Source: a phage. Taken from it: a stretch of DNA of 64,000 bases. Position numbers and translations under genes: made by a program. The notes beneath the pieces are model-generated. The model searched no databases. It was not told where the DNA came from and worked only from the letters and a program-made list of their open reading frames with translations. Positions 44,235 to 63,257 of the stretch are shown here, in pieces. Position 1 is the first letter of the stretch, and each line of letters opens with the position of its first letter. Location of the stretch: the sequence record NC_102531.1; one strand, 5' to 3'.

Positions 44235-45146
44235 TTATTTCCCGTTAACTTTGTTGTAGTTTCCCTGCTCAGAGGGGACTATGGTAGAAGGTCTTCCATA
44301 TTCCTGATAATACCAATCCGCAGCCGATTTGGTAACACCGTTTTCATCTGTCCACATCATAGATTTGTATGGCTGCCACTCCTCTGCAGCGTTTGTGGAT
44401 GCAGTGTCTGCGAATGCTCCTGTGTCCCTCTTGTTACCCACGTTACTGCCATTCTTACAGTCGTTGACAGCACCTTTTTGCTGGGTTTTGCCTACTTTCT
44501 TAGGATTGCTGTATACAGTTGCATTAACAACCTTATTCAAGTAGAATGTGCGGAACTCTGTAAGCTCTACATCAAACACCATTGCAGCGCCTTCACCAAC
44601 AGACTTGTTGGCAGAAAGACTGGTTATGATGTAGTTCTCAAGAAGTCTCTCCTCGGTAACCAAAGAAACCAACTGTCGCTTATTGATAATCTCAGTCAAA
44701 GCCTCCAATGCAGCGCCTGGTCGCATAGATGCTGCAGGGTTTTTAGAGTCAGTATTCCTATCAATGTAGTTTTGCTCATAAATTATGTGTGGAGATGTAT
44801 TTACCCTACCAGTAAAAGAAAATACACCATCTTTAATTACAGCGTGGTCTGACAGGGTAGATTTATCTTCCACCGCAAACCCAGTCTTATCAACAGAATG
44901 TTTGAAAGAGTAATTCTCAACCTGATCGAAGATAATGGCAAGATCGTTAGTAAAGTTTTTACCCTTCATCTCCGTATTGCGACCGCCATAGTTAAGACCG
45001 CTGACAAACATAGTGTACTTTACATCGCTTTCAGTTTGCTGCTCTGCCTTTTCAGCCTTTGGAGATTTAACCTCTTGAGGCTTGTACAGGTCTTTTTCAT
45101 CAACTATATTGCTTGGCATAACCTCTCCAGGACACTCCGATACCAT
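44235..45146 (-). CDS. tail protein downstream of tape measure (303 aa)
   Basis: ORF track; first gene after the 45197 terminator. Confidence 0.4.
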   Translation of the reverse strand: MVSECPGEVMPSNIVDEKDLYKPQEVKSPKAEKAEQQTESDVKYTMFVSGLNYGGRNTEMKGKNFTNDLAIIFDQVENYSFKHSVDKTGFAVEDKSTLSDHAVIKDGVFSFTGRVNTSPHIIYEQNYIDRNTDSKNPAASMRPGAALEALTEIINKRQLVSLVTEERLLENYIITSLSANKSVGEGAAMVFDVELTEFRTFYLNKVVNATVYSNPKKVGKTQQKGAVNDCKNGSNVGNKRDTGAFADTASTNAAEEWQPYKSMMWTDENGVTKSAADWYYQEYGRPSTIVPSEQGNYNKVNGK

Positions 45147-61347: not shown

Positions 61348-61617
61348 TTATCGAGGCACTCGGTGGATGATTCTAACAGTAACTGCGTTTTCATTCATCA
61401 AGTATGCATCTACATCTCTGTAAATATAAAACTTCTGCTCACTATCAACAACACAAGCTACCGCCCCTTCAGAGTTGTCTTCAAAAAAGACCACCACTGC
61501 ATCGCAGCTGAGTTCATGATATGACTCTCGAAGATTTACAGACAGAGGATTGAAATCGTCACGAAAATCTACGGTATGGGTTGGATTTACACGCTCTACA
61601 ATTTTAAGTGTATACAT
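61348..61617 (-). CDS. hypothetical protein (89 aa)
   Basis: ORF track; between tRNA cluster and spanins; no TM segment. Confidence 0.45.
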   Translation of the reverse strand: MYTLKIVERVNPTHTVDFRDDFNPLSVNLRESYHELSCDAVVVFFEDNSEGAVACVVDSEQKFYIYRDVDAYLMNENAVTVRIIHRVPR

Positions 61618-61663: not shown

Positions 61664-61740
61664 TGGTCTCCACGGAGTGATTCGAACACTCGACCTCCTG
61701 ATCCCAAATCAGGCGCTCTACCAAGCTGAGCTACGCGGAG
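61664..61740 (-). tRNA. tRNA-Pro (anticodon TGG)
   Basis: Manual cloverleaf on reverse complement: acceptor CTCCGCG/CGTGGAG, D-stem GCTC/GAGC, anticodon loop TTTGGGA, T-loop TTCGAAT, CCA encoded. Confidence 0.7.
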
Positions 61741-61751
61741 TATTTACTATT

Positions 61752-61826
61752 TGGTGGCCCTGGGTGGAATTGAACCACCGTCTGGCGATTATGAGTCGCT
61801 TGCTTGAACCTTCCAGCTACAGGGCC
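61752..61826 (-). tRNA. tRNA with CAT anticodon (Met, or Ile if lysidine-modified)
   Basis: Acceptor GGCCCTG/CAGGGCC, anticodon loop CTCATAA, T-arm GGTGG-TTCAATT-CCACC, CCA encoded. Confidence 0.65.
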
Positions 61827-61827
61827 T

Positions 61828-61903
61828 TGGTGCTGATGGCAGGACTTGAACCTACAACCTATTGATTACAAATCAATTGCACTACCGATTGTGCTACATC
61901 AGC
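61828..61903 (-). tRNA. tRNA-Thr (anticodon TGT)
   Basis: Acceptor GCTGATG/CATCAGC, D-stem GCAC/GTGC, anticodon stem ATTGA/TCAAT with loop TTTGTAA, T-loop TTCAAGT, CCA encoded. Confidence 0.7.
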
Positions 61904-61910
61904 AAAAAGG

Positions 61911-62007
61911 TGCTAGGTGATGGAATCGAACCACCTATGTATTCAACGACTACCTCGTCTATTTTCAGGATTAAAAATCCTCGCCCTTGCCAAAGGGCTT
62001 ACCTAGC
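61911..62007 (-). tRNA. atypical 97-nt tRNA-like element (perfect acceptor and T arm, expanded core; identity unresolved, possibly anticodon TTT)
   Basis: Acceptor GCTAGGT/ACCTAGC 7/7, D-arm GCCC-TTTGGCAA-GGGC, T-arm GGTGG-TTCGATT-CCATC; only plausible anticodon loop is TTTTTAA, followed by a 30-nt region with hairpin GACGA-GGTAG-TCGTT. No CCA. Confidence 0.35.
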
Positions 62008-62105
62008 TCAGTATGTTGACCATGTTGCTAGTCGGCGATGACGACTGTAACATTTGATAATCCGGTTCTGCTTCCGGCTTTCGCTTAATTACAAGGTCAA
62101 CAATG

Positions 62106-62196
62106 TGGCGGAGAGTAATGGAATCGAACCATCATCGAGTCATACCCAACGGGACGGTTTTCAAGACCGCTTGAGCACCATTGCTCCCTACCCTCC
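62106..62196 (-). tRNA. tRNA-Ser (anticodon TGA), long variable arm
   Basis: Acceptor GGAGGGT/ACTCTCC, anticodon stem GCGGT/ACCGT with loop CTTGAAA, ~20-nt variable arm, T-loop TTCGATT, CCA encoded. Confidence 0.7.
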
Positions 62197-62310
62197 TTTA
62201 TAAATTATACTGATAATGACACTGATTTTCGAGCAGTTAGTGACTAGTATAAACGACGATAAATATCAATGCCATTATCTGTATTATTTATGCATCTAAA
62301 AATATAAATT

Positions 62311-62397
62311 TGGTGGGGAGTGGTGGAGTCGAACCACCCGAGTCGCAATGACAATAGATTTACAGTCTACACCGCTACCTCTACGGGATAACTCCCC
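62311..62397 (-). tRNA. tRNA-Tyr (anticodon GTA), long variable arm
   Basis: Acceptor GGGGAGT/ACTCCCC, anticodon arm GTAGA-CTGTAAA-TCTAT, variable arm ~15 nt, T-arm GGTGG-TTCGACT-CCACC, CCA encoded. Confidence 0.7.
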
Positions 62398-62401
62398 AAT
62401 T

Positions 62402-62476
62402 TGGCACCCCGTACTGGACTCGAACCAGTGTCAACGGCTTAGAAGGCCGCTGCTTTATCCACTAAGCTAACAGGGC
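62402..62476 (-). tRNA. tRNA-Arg (anticodon TCT)
   Basis: Acceptor GCCCTGT/ACGGGGT (two G-U), D-arm GCTT-AGTGGAT-AAGC, anticodon arm GCGGC-CTTCTAA-GCCGT, T-arm ACTGG-TTCGAGT-CCAGT, CCA encoded. Confidence 0.7.
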
Positions 62477-62572
62477 ACTGGGTGGCTTTCTTTTACACCT
62501 TAGCCGCCAGAAAAGGTGGGAGACCATGTTTACAATATTACACTGTTAAGCAAAGTTTGTCAAGAAAATATT

Positions 62573-62911
62573 TTAGCTATTGCCAACAGGCTGTATTTCT
62601 GTAGTAAATGGCATAAAAGGTGCTGGTTTTTCAGCCTCTTCCACTACCACCTCTTCCTCTTCACCAAACATCTCATCATATTCTTCCTGCATTCGGTCTG
62701 CCTTATCAAGAACATACTCTGCAATGCTTTGACGAATATTTTGTTTGGTTTTCGGGTCCAACATCAGCTCTCTTAAAACTTTGTGAGCTTCTGGAACCAT
62801 CGCTATAAAAGATTCCTTCATATCAAGGATGTTCTTCTCTAGCTGAATGGCGTTGGACTCCTCTTTCAGAGGTCTGCCTCTACGGCGACGCTTTTTAGTT
62901 GTATCCGCCAT
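62573..62911 (-). CDS. small basic protein (113 aa from internal ATG), possible DNA-binding
   Basis: ORF track 62573..63031; ATG 62911 gives MADTTKKRRRRGRPLKEES... with acidic C-terminal tail; the longer start would run into a GC-rich structured region. Confidence 0.4.
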   Translation of the reverse strand: MADTTKKRRRRGRPLKEESNAIQLEKNILDMKESFIAMVPEAHKVLRELMLDPKTKQNIRQSIAEYVLDKADRMQEEYDEMFGEEEEVVVEEAEKPAPFMPFTTEIQPVGNS

Positions 62912-63257
62912 GTTTCCTCCATTATCACGTGATAGGTGGATTTTATCATAGCAAATACTGATTGTCAAGTTCGCCGCAGGGTGGTATTCCCTGCGACTTG
63001 TCCAGCGTCCTGGACCAGCAAGACCCAACAAGTGGGTTACCAGAGGCCTATTACCCGCGCTTCGGCTCGACCTTGTTACAGGTTGGCTGGGGTCACATCG
63101 TCATGTGCTGGCTGCCCCTACCATTTTAAGTGTGGTGCACTATCAAGCCCTCTAAGGGGAACTCAGTCTTCTCTGAACCCTGTTTCAAAGCATCCAGAGA
63201 TAAAGCCATCAAATTCATCTTTAAATTGGATATTCATCATGATACACGAAAACAACC

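What the first reader, a model, noticed from the sequence alone, without database searches (positions are those of the whole stretch)
61911..62007. Atypical 97-nt tRNA-like element inside the tRNA cluster
It has a perfect 7-bp acceptor stem, a good D-arm and T-arm, and sits exactly where a tRNA is expected between tRNA-Thr and tRNA-Ser, but the core is about 20 nt too long even for a class II tRNA. The only plausible anticodon loop is TTTTTAA with one mismatched stem pair, followed by an extra hairpin. It could be a tRNA with an insertion, a pseudogene, or a tRNA-derived regulatory RNA.
Basis: seen in the sequence. Interest (0 to 1): 0.5.

Follow-up and report, generated by a model that had tools for sequence, protein, structure and literature searches.

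The report
Conserved non-decoding tRNA-shaped phage RNA
A 97-base gene inside the tRNA cluster of E. coli phage rV5 encodes a tRNA-shaped RNA that is conserved across a whole phage subfamily but is not built to read codons, so it is probably a tRNA mimic of unknown role, not the lysine or suppressor tRNA that database records call it.

Summary
Window 61911-62007 (minus strand) folds into a five-helix cloverleaf (MFE -34.2 kcal/mol, z = -4.1). ARAGORN calls it "tRNA-???", and Rfam's tRNA model scores it 35.5 bits against 60-77 for its neighbours.

The window is phage rV5 (Vequintavirus). I found 28 distinct homologues, all on Vequintavirinae records or comparable phage-like contigs. Across them 99.2% of base-pair cells are kept and 13 of 22 pairs show compensatory double changes. 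The tertiary elbow pair 19:56 switches G:C to U:A.

It is not a decoder. The "anticodon" hairpin is 14-16 nt instead of 17. Its minimum-energy loops are 3, 5, 6 or 7 nt and differ in sequence. The clade with a 7-nt loop has A, not U, at position 33. Only a 4-bp reading gives rV5 a Lys-like UUUUUAA loop.

The most conserved parts are two single-stranded linkers (GAAAA..., ...AUACAUA) that flank a fast-evolving extra hairpin. Two rV5 relatives have lost the element by deletion, so it is dispensable for growth.

Best reading: a tRNA-derived, tRNA-processed mimic RNA. Its partner is unknown, possibly within the tRNA-centred phage-host conflict. GenBank labels (Lys, TERM, OTHER, or none) are inconsistent. 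It is a new variant of a known kind; the closest analogues are T4 RNAC and RNAD.

The parts
61911..62007 (-). Whole tRNA-shaped RNA gene (97 nt, from 5' G at 62007 to discriminator A at 61911)
   Evidence: Infernal tRNA model 35.5 bits, full length; ARAGORN tRNA-???; family model R1 102 bits; MFE z = -4.09
62001..62007 (-). Acceptor stem, 5' strand GCUAGGU
   Evidence: Pairs with 61912-61918. In the family all 7 pairs are 100% kept and 5 of 7 show double changes
61983..61998 (-). D arm GCCC-UUUGGCAA-GGGC, preceded by A8 A9 (61999-62000). Can also be drawn as a 6-bp stem with a 4-nt loop
   Evidence: 3 of 4 stem pairs show compensatory changes (GCCC/GGGC, GACC/GGUC, GCGG/CCGC). RNAalifold and the MFE folds draw 6 bp + 4 nt, but the extra U-A pairs never vary. 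The second G of the loop's GG (G19, 61990) covaries with the T-loop C (C56, 61928)
61967..61981 (-). Hairpin 1, the vestigial 'anticodon arm' AGGAU-UUUUA-AUCCU (15 nt; a UUUUUAA loop if only 4 bp form)
   Evidence: Stem covaries (3 of 5 pairs with double changes). Length is 14-16 nt in all members. MFE loops are 3, 5, 6 or 7 nt and differ in sequence
61960..61966 (-). 5' linker GAAAAUA, single-stranded
   Evidence: The G and the run of A are invariant or nearly invariant in 28 distinct sequences
61945..61959 (-). Hairpin 2, the extra (variable) arm GACGA-GGUAG-UCGUU
   Evidence: A hairpin is predicted at this place in almost every member, although the sequences are unrelated. Avunavirus has GACGG/CCGUU, a compensated change
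61936..61944 (-). 3' linker GAAUACAUA, single-stranded
   Evidence: AUACAUA followed by GG is invariant in all 28 distinct sequences. It is the longest invariant run outside the T loop
61919..61935 (-). T arm GGUGG-UUCGAUU-CCAUC
   Evidence: 100% of pair cells kept and one pair with double changes. Loop UUCGAUU, or UUAGAUU where the D loop reads UUUGUCAA
61911..61918 (-). Acceptor stem 3' strand ACCUAGC plus discriminator A73
   Evidence: N73 is A in Vequintavirus, C or U in Avunavirus and U in all others
61904..61910 (-). 3' trailer CCUUUUU up to the 5' end of tRNA-Thr. CCA is not fully encoded here
   Evidence: All 18 distinct members outside Vequintavirus and Avunavirus encode U73-CCA
62535..62563 (-). 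Promoter-like site TTGACA-17-TAAUAU upstream of tRNA-Arg, the presumed start of the tRNA operon that contains the element
   Evidence: Annotated as P(tRNA) in the rV5 RefSeq record
61664..62476 (-). The tRNA cluster that hosts the element: Arg(UCU), Tyr(GUA), Ser(UGA), element, Thr(UGU), Met/Ile2(CAU), Pro(UGG)

Best explanation
The element is a real gene for a tRNA-shaped but non-decoding small RNA: a tRNA mimic derived from a class II-type tRNA and conserved across the phage subfamily Vequintavirinae.

Shown by sequence and comparison:
- It keeps a 7-bp acceptor stem, a D arm, a T arm and the D-loop/T-loop elbow pair, so it should adopt the tRNA L-shape.
- Its anticodon arm is shortened and variable. 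It lacks the geometry needed for codon reading.
- Its variable region (31 nt here, 36-41 nt elsewhere) is a fast-evolving hairpin held between two invariant single-stranded linkers (GAAAA..., ...AUACAUA).

Inferred:
- It is transcribed with the phage tRNAs from the promoter upstream of tRNA-Arg.
- It is cut out by RNase P and the tRNA 3'-end machinery and ends in CCA (encoded in most genera, added or repaired in rV5).
- It accumulates as a stable RNA of about 100 nt.
- It works by occupying a protein that recognises tRNA shape (acceptor end and elbow) while presenting the conserved linker and extra-arm surface.

The most likely setting is the contest over tRNAs between phage and host. The phage's other tRNAs match known targets of host anticodon nucleases, and an rV5-like genome carries RNA ligase, polynucleotide kinase and phosphoesterase genes about 3.5 kb upstream. 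The partner and the benefit are unknown. The element is not essential for plaque formation.
For: Identity and annotation:
- The window is 99.8% identical to phage rV5 over the cluster.
- The element is missing from the rV5 RefSeq annotation and paper, which list six tRNAs. Other records call it tRNA-Lys, tRNA-TERM(tta), tRNA-OTHER or tRNA-???(atcc).

Family:
- Homologues occur in Vequintavirus, Avunavirus, Seunavirus, Henunavirus, Mydovirus and in metagenome or viral contigs up to about 150 kb.

Structure:
- On a MAFFT alignment of 16 sequences RNAalifold predicts the cloverleaf on its own, and 99.4% of cells pair.
- On 28 distinct sequences 99.2% of cells pair and 13 of 22 pairs have double changes. 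The covariation score is 0.50, against 0.19 +/- 0.013 in shuffles (0 of 500 reach it) and at most 0.10 when partners are slid.
- The elbow pair 19:56 is G:C in 20 sequences and U:A in 8, and never mismatched.

Not a decoder:
- Hairpin 1 is 14-16 nt. Its MFE loops are 3 nt (rV5, Avunavirus), 5 or 7 nt (Henunavirus-like) and 6 nt (Seunavirus, Mydovirus).
- Loop sequences include UUUUUAA, UUUAUAA, CAUCCA, CAGCCA, CCUCAA, YAUCAAA and GUGAUA. The 7-nt-loop clade has A at position 33.
- ARAGORN does not call the Seunavirus, Henunavirus or Avunavirus copies at all.
- A Seunavirus copy reaches only 27.5 bits, on the tRNA-Sec model (gathering score 47), and nothing above the tRNA gathering score.

Selection on non-tRNA parts:
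- AUACAUAGG and G-AAAA are invariant.
- The variable region stays at 36-41 nt (38-41 in all but one member) although the hairpin-2 sequences are unrelated.

Processing context:
- In most genera the element starts 2 nt after the CCA of the preceding tRNA and is itself followed by an encoded CCA.
- A promoter-like site lies upstream of the cluster.

Dispensability:
- Phages V18 and JES2013 carry deletions that fuse the 5' part of tRNA-Tyr to the 3' part of the element.

Context:
- RNA ligase, polynucleotide kinase and phosphoesterase genes lie upstream of the cluster in phage AlexBoehm.
- Phage tRNAs and tRNA repair enzymes counter PrrC, PARIS and retron-Eco7 (papers PMC2610378, PMC11464382, PMC11555353, PMC10264068).
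Against: - There is no expression, end-mapping or aminoacylation data for this RNA in any phage.
- No partner has been identified. The neighbouring proteins have no Pfam domain.
- The decoy or anti-defence role rests on genomic context only.
- Covariation counts sequences, not independent events. The elbow switch is probably a single event inherited by one clade.
- The rV5 copy can be drawn with a Lys-like 7-nt loop and has the A73 discriminator of tRNA-Lys, so decoding by this one lineage is not strictly excluded.
- Natural deletion mutants are viable, so any benefit is conditional.
Confidence: 0.68

Rival explanations
1. It is a working elongator tRNA-Lys(UUU) with an outsized variable arm, as annotated in the BASEL phages. 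It might be a nuclease-resistant substitute for host tRNA-Lys when PrrC, RloC or PARIS cleave that tRNA.
For: - Infernal aligns a UUUUUAA loop (anticodon UUU, A37) and the score, 35.5 bits, passes the Rfam gathering score of 29.
- The discriminator is A73, which together with the UUU anticodon is the E. coli LysRS identity set (my own knowledge).
- BASEL records call it tRNA-Lys, codon AAA.
- Phage tRNA-Lys genes do rescue phages from PrrC and PARIS (PMC11555353, PMC11464382).
Against: - The 7-nt loop needs a 4-bp stem plus a G.G mismatch. The MFE fold closes the hairpin to 6 bp with a 3-nt loop.
- The nearest relatives (Avunavirus, 93% identical) have UAU instead. The other genera have 6-nt loops, or 7-nt loops with A33, while every other part of the molecule is conserved. 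Selection is therefore not acting on an anticodon.
- The score is 25-40 bits below the six true tRNAs beside it.
- CCA is not encoded, unlike all six neighbours.
Confidence: 0.1
2. It is a decaying tRNA pseudogene, or a relic kept only as a processing spacer: an RNase P landmark that helps release the neighbouring tRNAs, with no function of its own.
For: - It is dispensable in V18 and JES2013.
- The anticodon arm is degenerate.
- In most genera it abuts another tRNA with a 2-nt spacer, like the dimeric tRNA precursors of T4 (T4 precursors from my own knowledge).
Against: - A neutral relic would not keep 99.2% of pair cells with 13 compensated pairs across five genera.
- It would not keep the elbow pair through a double change.
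- A punctuation role needs only the acceptor and T arm. It does not explain the invariant AUACAUA and GAAAA linkers, the constant length of the variable region, or the conserved GAAYUAACAGUA loop of hairpin 2 shared by clades with different stems.
Confidence: 0.1
3. It is a stop-codon suppressor tRNA: UUA in rV5 as some pipelines say, or UCA in Henunavirus.
For: - It is annotated tRNA-TERM(tta) in JLBYU08 and SophiaRose, and 'suppressor' in Erwinia phage pEp_SNUABM_01.
- The Henunavirus-like clade has a 7-nt loop YAUCAAA with UCA at the centre.
Against: - In rV5 the UUA reading needs an anticodon stem that does not pair (checked by hand).
- The UCA clade has A33 in place of the universal U33, and only a 4-bp stem.
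- I know of no sign of stop-codon recoding in these phages; this was not analysed here.
- The loop is not conserved across the family.
Confidence: 0.03
4. It is a tRNA precursor with a protein-spliced insert. The linker-hairpin 2-linker segment is cut out and the halves are rejoined by the phage kinase, phosphoesterase and RNA ligase.
For: The healing-and-sealing enzyme set is encoded 3.5 kb upstream in an rV5-like genome. The insert has conserved boundaries.
Against: - After any such excision the anticodon arm would still be non-canonical.
- No splicing endonuclease is known in these hosts or phages.
- No bulge-helix-bulge motif is present.
- The most conserved sequence lies inside the supposed insert.
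Confidence: 0.02

Closest known systems
Phage T4 small stable RNAs RNAC (species 1) and RNAD (species 2)
   Same: Both are non-tRNA stable RNAs encoded inside a phage tRNA cluster and co-transcribed with the tRNAs. RNAC carries a tRNA-type T arm (CCGGGUUCGAAUCCCGG) and a closing stem. Their roles are still unknown (PMC3014915, PMC9697503).
   Different: There is no sequence or structure homology: family model R1 finds only ordinary tRNAs in the T4 region, at 22.7 bits or less. The T4 RNAs are longer (139 and 119 nt) and lack a full cloverleaf. This element keeps all four tRNA arms plus an extra one.
Class II (long variable arm) bacterial tRNAs: Leu, Ser, Tyr
   Same: Five-helix cloverleaf, 7-bp acceptor stem, 5-bp T stem, G18G19 and UUCGAUU loops, and an extra arm between the anticodon arm and the T arm. 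The best non-family hits of model R1 are ordinary tRNAs, among them the class II Ser, Tyr and Leu, at 20-30 bits.
   Different: The variable region is 31-41 nt, with 7-9-nt unpaired, invariant linkers on both sides of the arm. The anticodon arm is 14-16 nt with a non-canonical loop. A8 and U14 replace U8 and A14. No anticodon is conserved.
tRNA-Sec and allo-tRNAs (RF01852; Mukai et al. 2017, from my own knowledge)
   Same: Long extra arm. The D arm can be drawn as a 6-bp stem with a 4-nt loop. Position 8 is not U. One clade has UCA at the centre of the loop. A Seunavirus copy scores best on the tRNA-Sec model (27.5 bits).
   Different: The acceptor/T geometry is 7/5, not 8/5, 9/4, 8/4 or 9/3. 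The discriminator is A, C or U, not G. The score is far below the gathering score of 47. The loop has A33. The extra D-stem pairs never vary, so they are untested.
Non-decoding tRNA mimics in bacteria: YrlA Y-RNA tRNA-like domain, tmRNA tRNA-like domain, Bacillus cereus tRNA-Other (from my own knowledge)
   Same: All are RNAs that keep the acceptor, T arm and elbow, use tRNA-processing and tRNA-binding proteins, and do not read codons.
   Different: No Rfam hit to YrlA or tmRNA at this locus: the weak YrlA and tmRNA hits lie over other tRNAs. There is no Ro-binding helix, no tag reading frame, and ARAGORN finds no tmRNA. This family keeps a D arm and a short anticodon-like hairpin.
Phage tRNAs used against tRNA-cleaving defences (T5 tRNA-Lys against PARIS, T5/SP15 tRNA-Tyr against retron-Eco7, tRNA-Lys against PrrC)
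   Same: Located in a phage tRNA cluster. The rV5 copy carries a Lys-like loop and A73. tRNA repair genes lie nearby.
   Different: Those are functional decoding tRNAs that replace cleaved host tRNAs. This RNA lacks a usable anticodon arm in most or all lineages.

Membership tests
Canonical tRNA (Rfam RF00005) | Score at or above the curated gathering score (29 bits) | tested here: met
   35.5 bits for the rV5 copy, with a 26-nt insertion and two non-standard pairs flagged. The neighbours score 60-77 bits. A Seunavirus homologue does not reach it.
Canonical tRNA (Rfam RF00005) | 7-bp acceptor stem, D arm and T arm with a T-psi-C-type loop, G19:C56 elbow pair | tested here: met
   All are present and kept by covariation. 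The 19:56 pair is G:C in 20 sequences and U:A in 8, with no mismatch.
Canonical tRNA (Rfam RF00005) | Anticodon arm of 5 bp with a 7-nt loop, U33 and a purine at 37 | tested here: not met
   Hairpin 1 is 14-16 nt in all 28 distinct members. MFE loops are 3, 5, 6 or 7 nt. The 7-nt-loop clade has A33. rV5 needs a 4-bp stem plus a G.G mismatch.
Canonical tRNA (Rfam RF00005) | Anticodon conserved among orthologues | tested here: not met
   The central triplets read UUU, UAU, UCC, GCC and UCA, or are undefinable, in orthologous positions.
Canonical tRNA (Rfam RF00005) | Variable region of 4-5 nt (class I) or up to about 21-24 nt (class II); U8 and A14 | tested here: not met
   The variable region is 31 nt here and 36-41 nt in other genera. 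A8 and U14 are invariant. The class II upper limit is from my own knowledge.
Canonical tRNA (Rfam RF00005) | Aminoacylation and use on the ribosome | not testable with these tools
   Needs acid-gel or periodate assays and polysome association.
tRNA-Sec (Rfam RF01852) | 13-bp acceptor plus T helix (8/5 in bacteria), G73, UCA anticodon, score at or above 47 bits | tested here: not met
   The geometry is 7/5. An eighth acceptor pair would be an A.C mismatch. N73 is A, C or U. The best score is 27.5 bits, in a Seunavirus copy.
tRNA-Sec (Rfam RF01852) | 6-bp D stem with a 4-nt D loop | tested here: inconclusive
   RNAalifold and the MFE folds draw it that way, but the two extra U-A pairs are invariant, so there is no covariation for or against.
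T4 RNAC / RNAD | Sequence or structure homology to the T4 species 1 or species 2 RNAs | tested here: not met
   Model R1 finds no match over rnaC or rnaD in T4 69500-74500 at E <= 10.
T4 RNAC / RNAD | Stable non-tRNA RNA processed from a phage tRNA operon | not testable with these tools
   The location inside the operon is met. Stability and processing need RNA data.
tmRNA | tRNA-like domain plus a tag-peptide reading frame | tested here: not met
   ARAGORN reports no tmRNA. Rfam gives only a 17-bit permuted-tmRNA hit, over other tRNAs.
YrlA (bacterial Y RNA-like) | Rfam RF02553 match with a Ro-binding helix | tested here: not met
   The only hit (25 bits, gathering score 69) spans 61687-61799 over tRNA-Pro and tRNA-Met, not the element.

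The most novel reading that the evidence does not exclude
The RNA is an identity-matched tRNA decoy. It keeps the acceptor end, the elbow and a short anticodon-like loop whose central triplet matches its discriminator: UUU with A73 (the Lys identity set) in rV5, and UCC or GCC with U73-CCA (the Gly identity set) in Seunavirus and Mydovirus. A host protein that reads tRNA identity could therefore bind it: an anticodon nuclease of an anti-phage system, or an aminoacyl-tRNA synthetase. The RNA cannot enter translation. The invariant linkers and extra arm would then trap or block that protein. This would be an RNA-only anti-defence device of a kind not yet described for tRNA-targeting immunity.
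Probability: 0.15. Interest if true: 0.8.

Novelty: new variant of a known kind. Interest (0 to 1): 0.45.

Why it matters
Phage tRNA clusters are now known to be counter-defence loci: replacement tRNAs act against PrrC, PARIS and retron-Eco7. A conserved cluster member that has the tRNA shape but cannot decode would be a different kind of player. It could be a mimic, a decoy or a scaffold. It would also be the first such RNA since T4 RNAC and RNAD to offer a clean comparative signature and ready genetic handles: natural deletion mutants and well-studied coliphages, including the BASEL collection.

In practice, more than a hundred GenBank records label this gene inconsistently as tRNA-Lys, suppressor tRNA or tRNA-OTHER, or omit it. 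This distorts tRNA counts, codon-usage arguments and 'suppressor tRNA' calls for therapeutic phage candidates. A covariance model such as the one built here would settle the annotation.

Tried and rejected
1. ARAGORN's own fold for rV5 (stem AUUUU/AAAAU, 8-nt loop, 4-base anticodon AUCC). The pairing does not exist in Seunavirus, Henunavirus or Mydovirus sequences. Rejected.

2. A kissing interaction between the hairpin 1 and hairpin 2 loops. UCCA/UGGA are complementary in five Seunavirus-type sequences and change together to GCCA/UGGC in L039. No complementarity exists in the rV5, Avunavirus, Henunavirus, FENT2, L033 or L061 types. Rejected as a family feature.

3. Watson-Crick pairing between the two linkers. 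GAAAAUA and GAAUACAUA are not complementary. A loop-E-like non-canonical pairing cannot be tested here.

4. Homology to T4 rnaC and rnaD. No model hit.

5. tRNA-Sec or allo-tRNA membership. The geometry and discriminator do not fit.

6. A search for members outside phages. None scored above 27.6 bits with the family model, and those hits are ordinary tRNA-Tyr genes. The absence is therefore not exhaustive.

7. Neighbouring genes as clues. Window 61348-61617 and 62573-62911 and their counterparts have no Pfam domain and belong only to PHROGs of unknown function. The upstream gene in other genera is a tail-fibre-family protein.

8. Literature. No paper in the searchable library describes the element. 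The rV5 genome paper lists six tRNAs without it.

9. My first alignment used the wrong strand for three loci and was discarded.
Full report
WHAT IS THERE

The window's last 2.4 kb carries a tRNA cluster on the minus strand. ARAGORN finds Arg(UCU) 62402-62476, Tyr(GUA) 62311-62397, Ser(UGA) 62106-62196, a "tRNA-???" at 61909-62007, Thr(UGU) 61828-61903, Met/Ile2(CAU) 61752-61826 and Pro(UGG) 61664-61740.

Rfam's tRNA model aligns 61911-62007 end to end at 35.5 bits. The gathering score is 29, and the neighbouring class I tRNAs score 60-77 bits. The alignment has a 26-nt insertion in the variable region and a flagged non-standard 27:43 pair.

Read 5'->3' the RNA is: GCUAGGU | AA | GCCC-UUUGGCAA-GGGC | G | AGGAU-UUUUA-AUCCU | GAAAAUA | GACGA-GGUAG-UCGUU | GAAUACAUA | GGUGG-UUCGAUU-CCAUC | ACCUAGC | A, followed by CCUUUUU and then tRNA-Thr.

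Its minimum-energy fold is this five-helix cloverleaf: -34.2 kcal/mol, z = -4.09, with 0 of 200 shuffles as stable.

The one exception is size. The excess over the co-resident class II tRNAs is about 9-13 nt, not about 20.

WHERE IT COMES FROM

The cluster is 99.8% identical to Escherichia phage rV5, genus Vequintavirus.

The rV5 RefSeq record and the rV5 genome paper list six tRNAs and omit this gene. Other records call the identical sequence tRNA-Lys (AAA), tRNA-TERM (tta), tRNA-OTHER or tRNA-???(atcc), or leave it blank. So it has been noticed by pipelines but never resolved. I found no paper that discusses it.

A CONSERVED FAMILY

Distant BLAST, pattern scans of viral and metagenome contigs and a covariance model (R1) recovered homologues in:
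- Vequintavirus and Avunavirus
- Seunavirus (PVP-SE1, EspYZU12, NINP13076, LNA4, EC152, FENT2)
- Henunavirus and Mydovirus
- uncultured viral and metagenome contigs of up to about 150 kb

Together these give 28 distinct sequences in the main alignment, scoring 79-119 bits, plus three more found later. There is one copy per genome.

None is a family member.

THE FOLD IS UNDER SELECTION

On an unbiased MAFFT alignment of 16 sequences, RNAalifold predicts the same cloverleaf by itself, and 99.4% of pair cells are standard pairs.

On 28 distinct sequences:
- 99.2% of cells pair, and 13 of 22 pairs show double, compensatory changes.
- The covariation score is 0.50, against 0.19 +/- 0.013 in shuffles (0 of 500 reach it).
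- The score is at most 0.10 when partners are slid by 1-3 columns.

Examples of compensated changes:
- Acceptor stem: GCUAGGU, GCUGGGU, GCCUGGU, GCCGGGU, GCAGGGU, GCCGGAU and ACCGGAU, each with the matching 3' strand.
- D stem: GCCC/GGGC, GACC/GGUC, GCGG/CCGC, GCAG/CUGC.

Most telling, the D-loop GG becomes GU exactly where the T-loop UUCGAUU becomes UUAGAUU. The tertiary elbow pair G19:C56 is replaced by U19:A56 in 8 of 28 sequences, with no mismatched combination.

This is probably one inherited event rather than several. It is still what an L-shaped tRNA fold predicts and what a DNA-level or coding feature does not.

IT IS NOT BUILT TO DECODE

The hairpin in the anticodon position is 14-16 nt in every member, never the canonical 17:
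- In rV5 and Avunavirus it is AGGAU-UUUUA/UUAUA-AUCCU. The MFE fold is 6 bp with a 3-nt loop. A 7-nt loop (UUUUUAA or UUUAUAA) needs a 4-bp stem plus a G.G mismatch.
- In Seunavirus and Mydovirus it is 5 bp with a 6-nt loop: CAUCCA, CUUCCA, CCUCCA, CAGCCA or CCUCAA.
- In the Henunavirus-like clade it is 4 bp with a 7-nt loop YAUCAAA or AAUCAAG (MFE closes two of these members to 5 bp with a 5-nt loop). Position 33 is A there, where tRNAs universally have U.

ARAGORN does not call the non-rV5 copies at all. A Seunavirus copy reaches only 27.5 bits on the tRNA-Sec model (gathering score 47) and nothing above the tRNA gathering score.

The "anticodon" thus changes between genera (UUU, UAU, UCC, GCC, UCA) while the rest of the molecule is held. 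Selection is not on codon reading. The labels "tRNA-Lys" and "suppressor" are artefacts of forcing a tRNA model onto the sequence.

WHAT IS CONSERVED INSTEAD

Outside the D and T loops, the invariant positions are the two single-stranded linkers. These are G followed by a run of A after hairpin 1, and AUACAUA immediately before the T stem. AUACAUAGG is invariant in all 28 sequences.

Between the linkers sits hairpin 2. Its sequence turns over completely, but a helix is always predicted. One loop type, GAAYUAACAGUA, is shared by clades whose stems differ (GCC/GGC, GUC/GAC, AGCG/CGCU, UCCU/AGGG).

The whole variable region is 31 nt in Vequintavirus and Avunavirus and 36-41 nt elsewhere (38-41 in all but one member).

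A8 and U14 are invariant, in place of the usual U8 and A14. The D arm can be drawn as 6 bp plus a 4-nt loop, as in tRNA-Sec. Those two extra pairs never vary, so this stays untested.

ENDS AND PROCESSING (INFERRED)

- A sigma-70-type promoter (TTGACA-17-TAAUAU, 62563-62535) precedes tRNA-Arg. It is annotated as P(tRNA) in rV5.
- In most genera the element begins 2 nt after the CCA of the preceding tRNA and is followed by an encoded U73-CCA.
- In rV5 the 3' end reads A73-CC-U. All six neighbouring tRNAs encode CCA.

This layout fits excision by RNase P and the tRNA 3'-end enzymes. No RNA data exist to confirm it.

DISPENSABILITY

Phage V18 and phage JES2013 carry deletions that join the 5' part of tRNA-Tyr to the 3' part of the element. 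In V18 the join lies at the extra-arm region, in JES2013 at the T arm. Both deletions remove tRNA-Ser and the 5' half of the element. The RNA is therefore not needed for growth on laboratory hosts.

HOW IT PROBABLY WORKS

The safest statement is that this is a tRNA mimic. It is matured like a tRNA and presents the acceptor end and elbow to tRNA-binding proteins. It is excluded from decoding, and its specific function resides in the linkers and extra arm. I put this at about 0.7.

The partner is unknown. Three pieces of context point to the tRNA arms race:
- The other tRNAs of the cluster (Lys-like, Tyr, Arg, Thr, Ser) overlap the known targets of anticodon nucleases.
- Phage tRNAs are documented counter-measures to PrrC, PARIS and retron-Eco7 (PMC10264068, PMC11464382, PMC11555353).
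- The rV5-like phage AlexBoehm encodes RNA ligase, polynucleotide kinase and a phosphoesterase about 3.5 kb upstream of the cluster. This is the healing-and-sealing enzyme set T4 uses against PrrC (PMC2610378).

A further observation is suggestive but rests on very few independent lineages. The loop triplet tends to match the discriminator according to E. coli identity rules (my own knowledge):
- UUU with A73, the Lys set, in rV5.
- UCC or GCC with U73-CCA, the Gly set, in Seunavirus and Mydovirus.
- Avunavirus (UAU with C or U73) does not fit, and UCA with U73 has no cognate set.

This leaves open a decoy for an identity-reading protein, either an anticodon nuclease or a synthetase. I rate that at about 0.15.

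RIVALS

- A functional tRNA-Lys in the rV5 lineage alone: about 0.1.
- A neutral relic or mere RNase P punctuation: about 0.1. The conserved linkers contradict it.
- A suppressor tRNA: about 0.03.
- A protein-spliced precursor: about 0.02.

COMPARISON WITH KNOWN RNAs

Functionally the closest are T4 RNAC and RNAD. These are stable RNAs from the T4 tRNA operon whose roles remain unknown. The family model finds no homology to them.

Architecturally the element is a class II tRNA with an over-long, linker-flanked extra arm and a truncated anticodon arm. It fails defining tests for canonical tRNA (anticodon arm, conserved anticodon, variable-region size), tRNA-Sec (7/5 helices, discriminator, score), tmRNA and YrlA.

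I therefore class it as a new variant of a known kind: tRNA-like small RNAs of phage tRNA clusters.

VERDICT

The element is a genuine, selectively maintained, subfamily-wide tRNA-shaped RNA that databases mislabel. Its function is open. Interest is moderate (0.45). It would be high if the decoy reading proved true.

Noticed in passing
window 62008-62105 (minus strand), core about 62020-62090: The 98-nt spacer between tRNA-Ser and the element holds a ~70-nt core (UAAUUAAGCGAAAGCCGGAAGCAGAACCGGAUUAUCAAAUGUUACAGUCGUCAUCGCCGACUAGCAA). It is 83-90% identical in unrelated phages: lambda 44866-44952 (between orf-64 and S), the P1-like phage D6 (also right after a homologous tRNA-Ser(UGA)) and siphovirus ST1UNAM. 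It occurs in 433 of 5426 complete E. coli genomes and was not annotated in any of the records listed. It has two inner hairpins, one with a compensated G:C->U:A change in rV5, and a closing stem that differs between phages. No Rfam hit; MFE z = -2.6. It is an unrecognised small structured RNA or a mobile module.
   Followed up: partly
window 62197-62310 (minus strand): The 114-nt A+T-rich spacer between tRNA-Tyr and tRNA-Ser folds into a long, nearly perfect hairpin (GAUAAUGGCAUUGAU...AUCAGUGUCAUUAUC; MFE -26.2, z = -4.45, 0 of 200 shuffles). It overlaps a promoter-like site, TCGAAA-17-TATAAT at 62232-62204, just upstream of tRNA-Ser.
   Followed up: partly
L024 (phage V18) 560-646 and L025 (phage JES2013) 540-631: Natural deletions created chimeras of the 5' part of tRNA-Tyr and the 3' part of the element, removing tRNA-Ser and both spacers. 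The acceptor halves no longer pair (GGGGAGU or GGUGAGU against ACCUAGC). These phages have lost Tyr, Ser and the element in one step by recombination between tRNA-like repeats.
   Followed up: yes
MZ501048 (phage AlexBoehm) 129167-131175; would lie beyond the window's end, about 3.5 kb upstream of tRNA-Arg: RNA ligase, polynucleotide kinase and a phosphoesterase (a tRNA healing-and-sealing set) sit next to the tRNA cluster, with a sirtuin-domain protein beside them.
   Followed up: no
L005 1310-1495; also L004, L007, L018, L022: In Seunavirus and Avunavirus the element is followed by another conserved non-coding stretch (AAGUGCAUUAGCUCAGAUUAUUUGA...CUGAUCAUCUGUG...GAGAAUGAGCC). It begins like a tRNA (UAGCUCAG D-arm motif), but neither ARAGORN nor Rfam at E <= 1 recognises it. 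It may be a second unrecognised small RNA in these clusters.
   Followed up: partly
window 61752-61826 (minus strand): The tRNA with anticodon CAU is called tRNA-Met in rV5 but tRNA-Ile (codon AUA, that is, a lysidine-dependent tRNA-Ile2) in the BASEL annotation. Its identity was not resolved here.
   Followed up: no
window 62950-63170: A G+C-rich (54-56%) intergenic stretch of about 200 nt sits in an A+T-rich region between two small ORFs, upstream of the tRNA operon. It has no annotated gene in rV5 and no Rfam hit, and its fold is not better than shuffles (z = -0.95).
   Followed up: partly
window 62106-62196 and 62311-62397 (minus strand): Infernal assigns the two class II tRNAs (Ser, Tyr) to the tRNA-Sec model, below its threshold (41.6 and 33.7 bits against 47). 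This is only because Rfam's general tRNA model handles long variable arms poorly. It is not evidence for selenocysteine tRNAs.
   Followed up: yes
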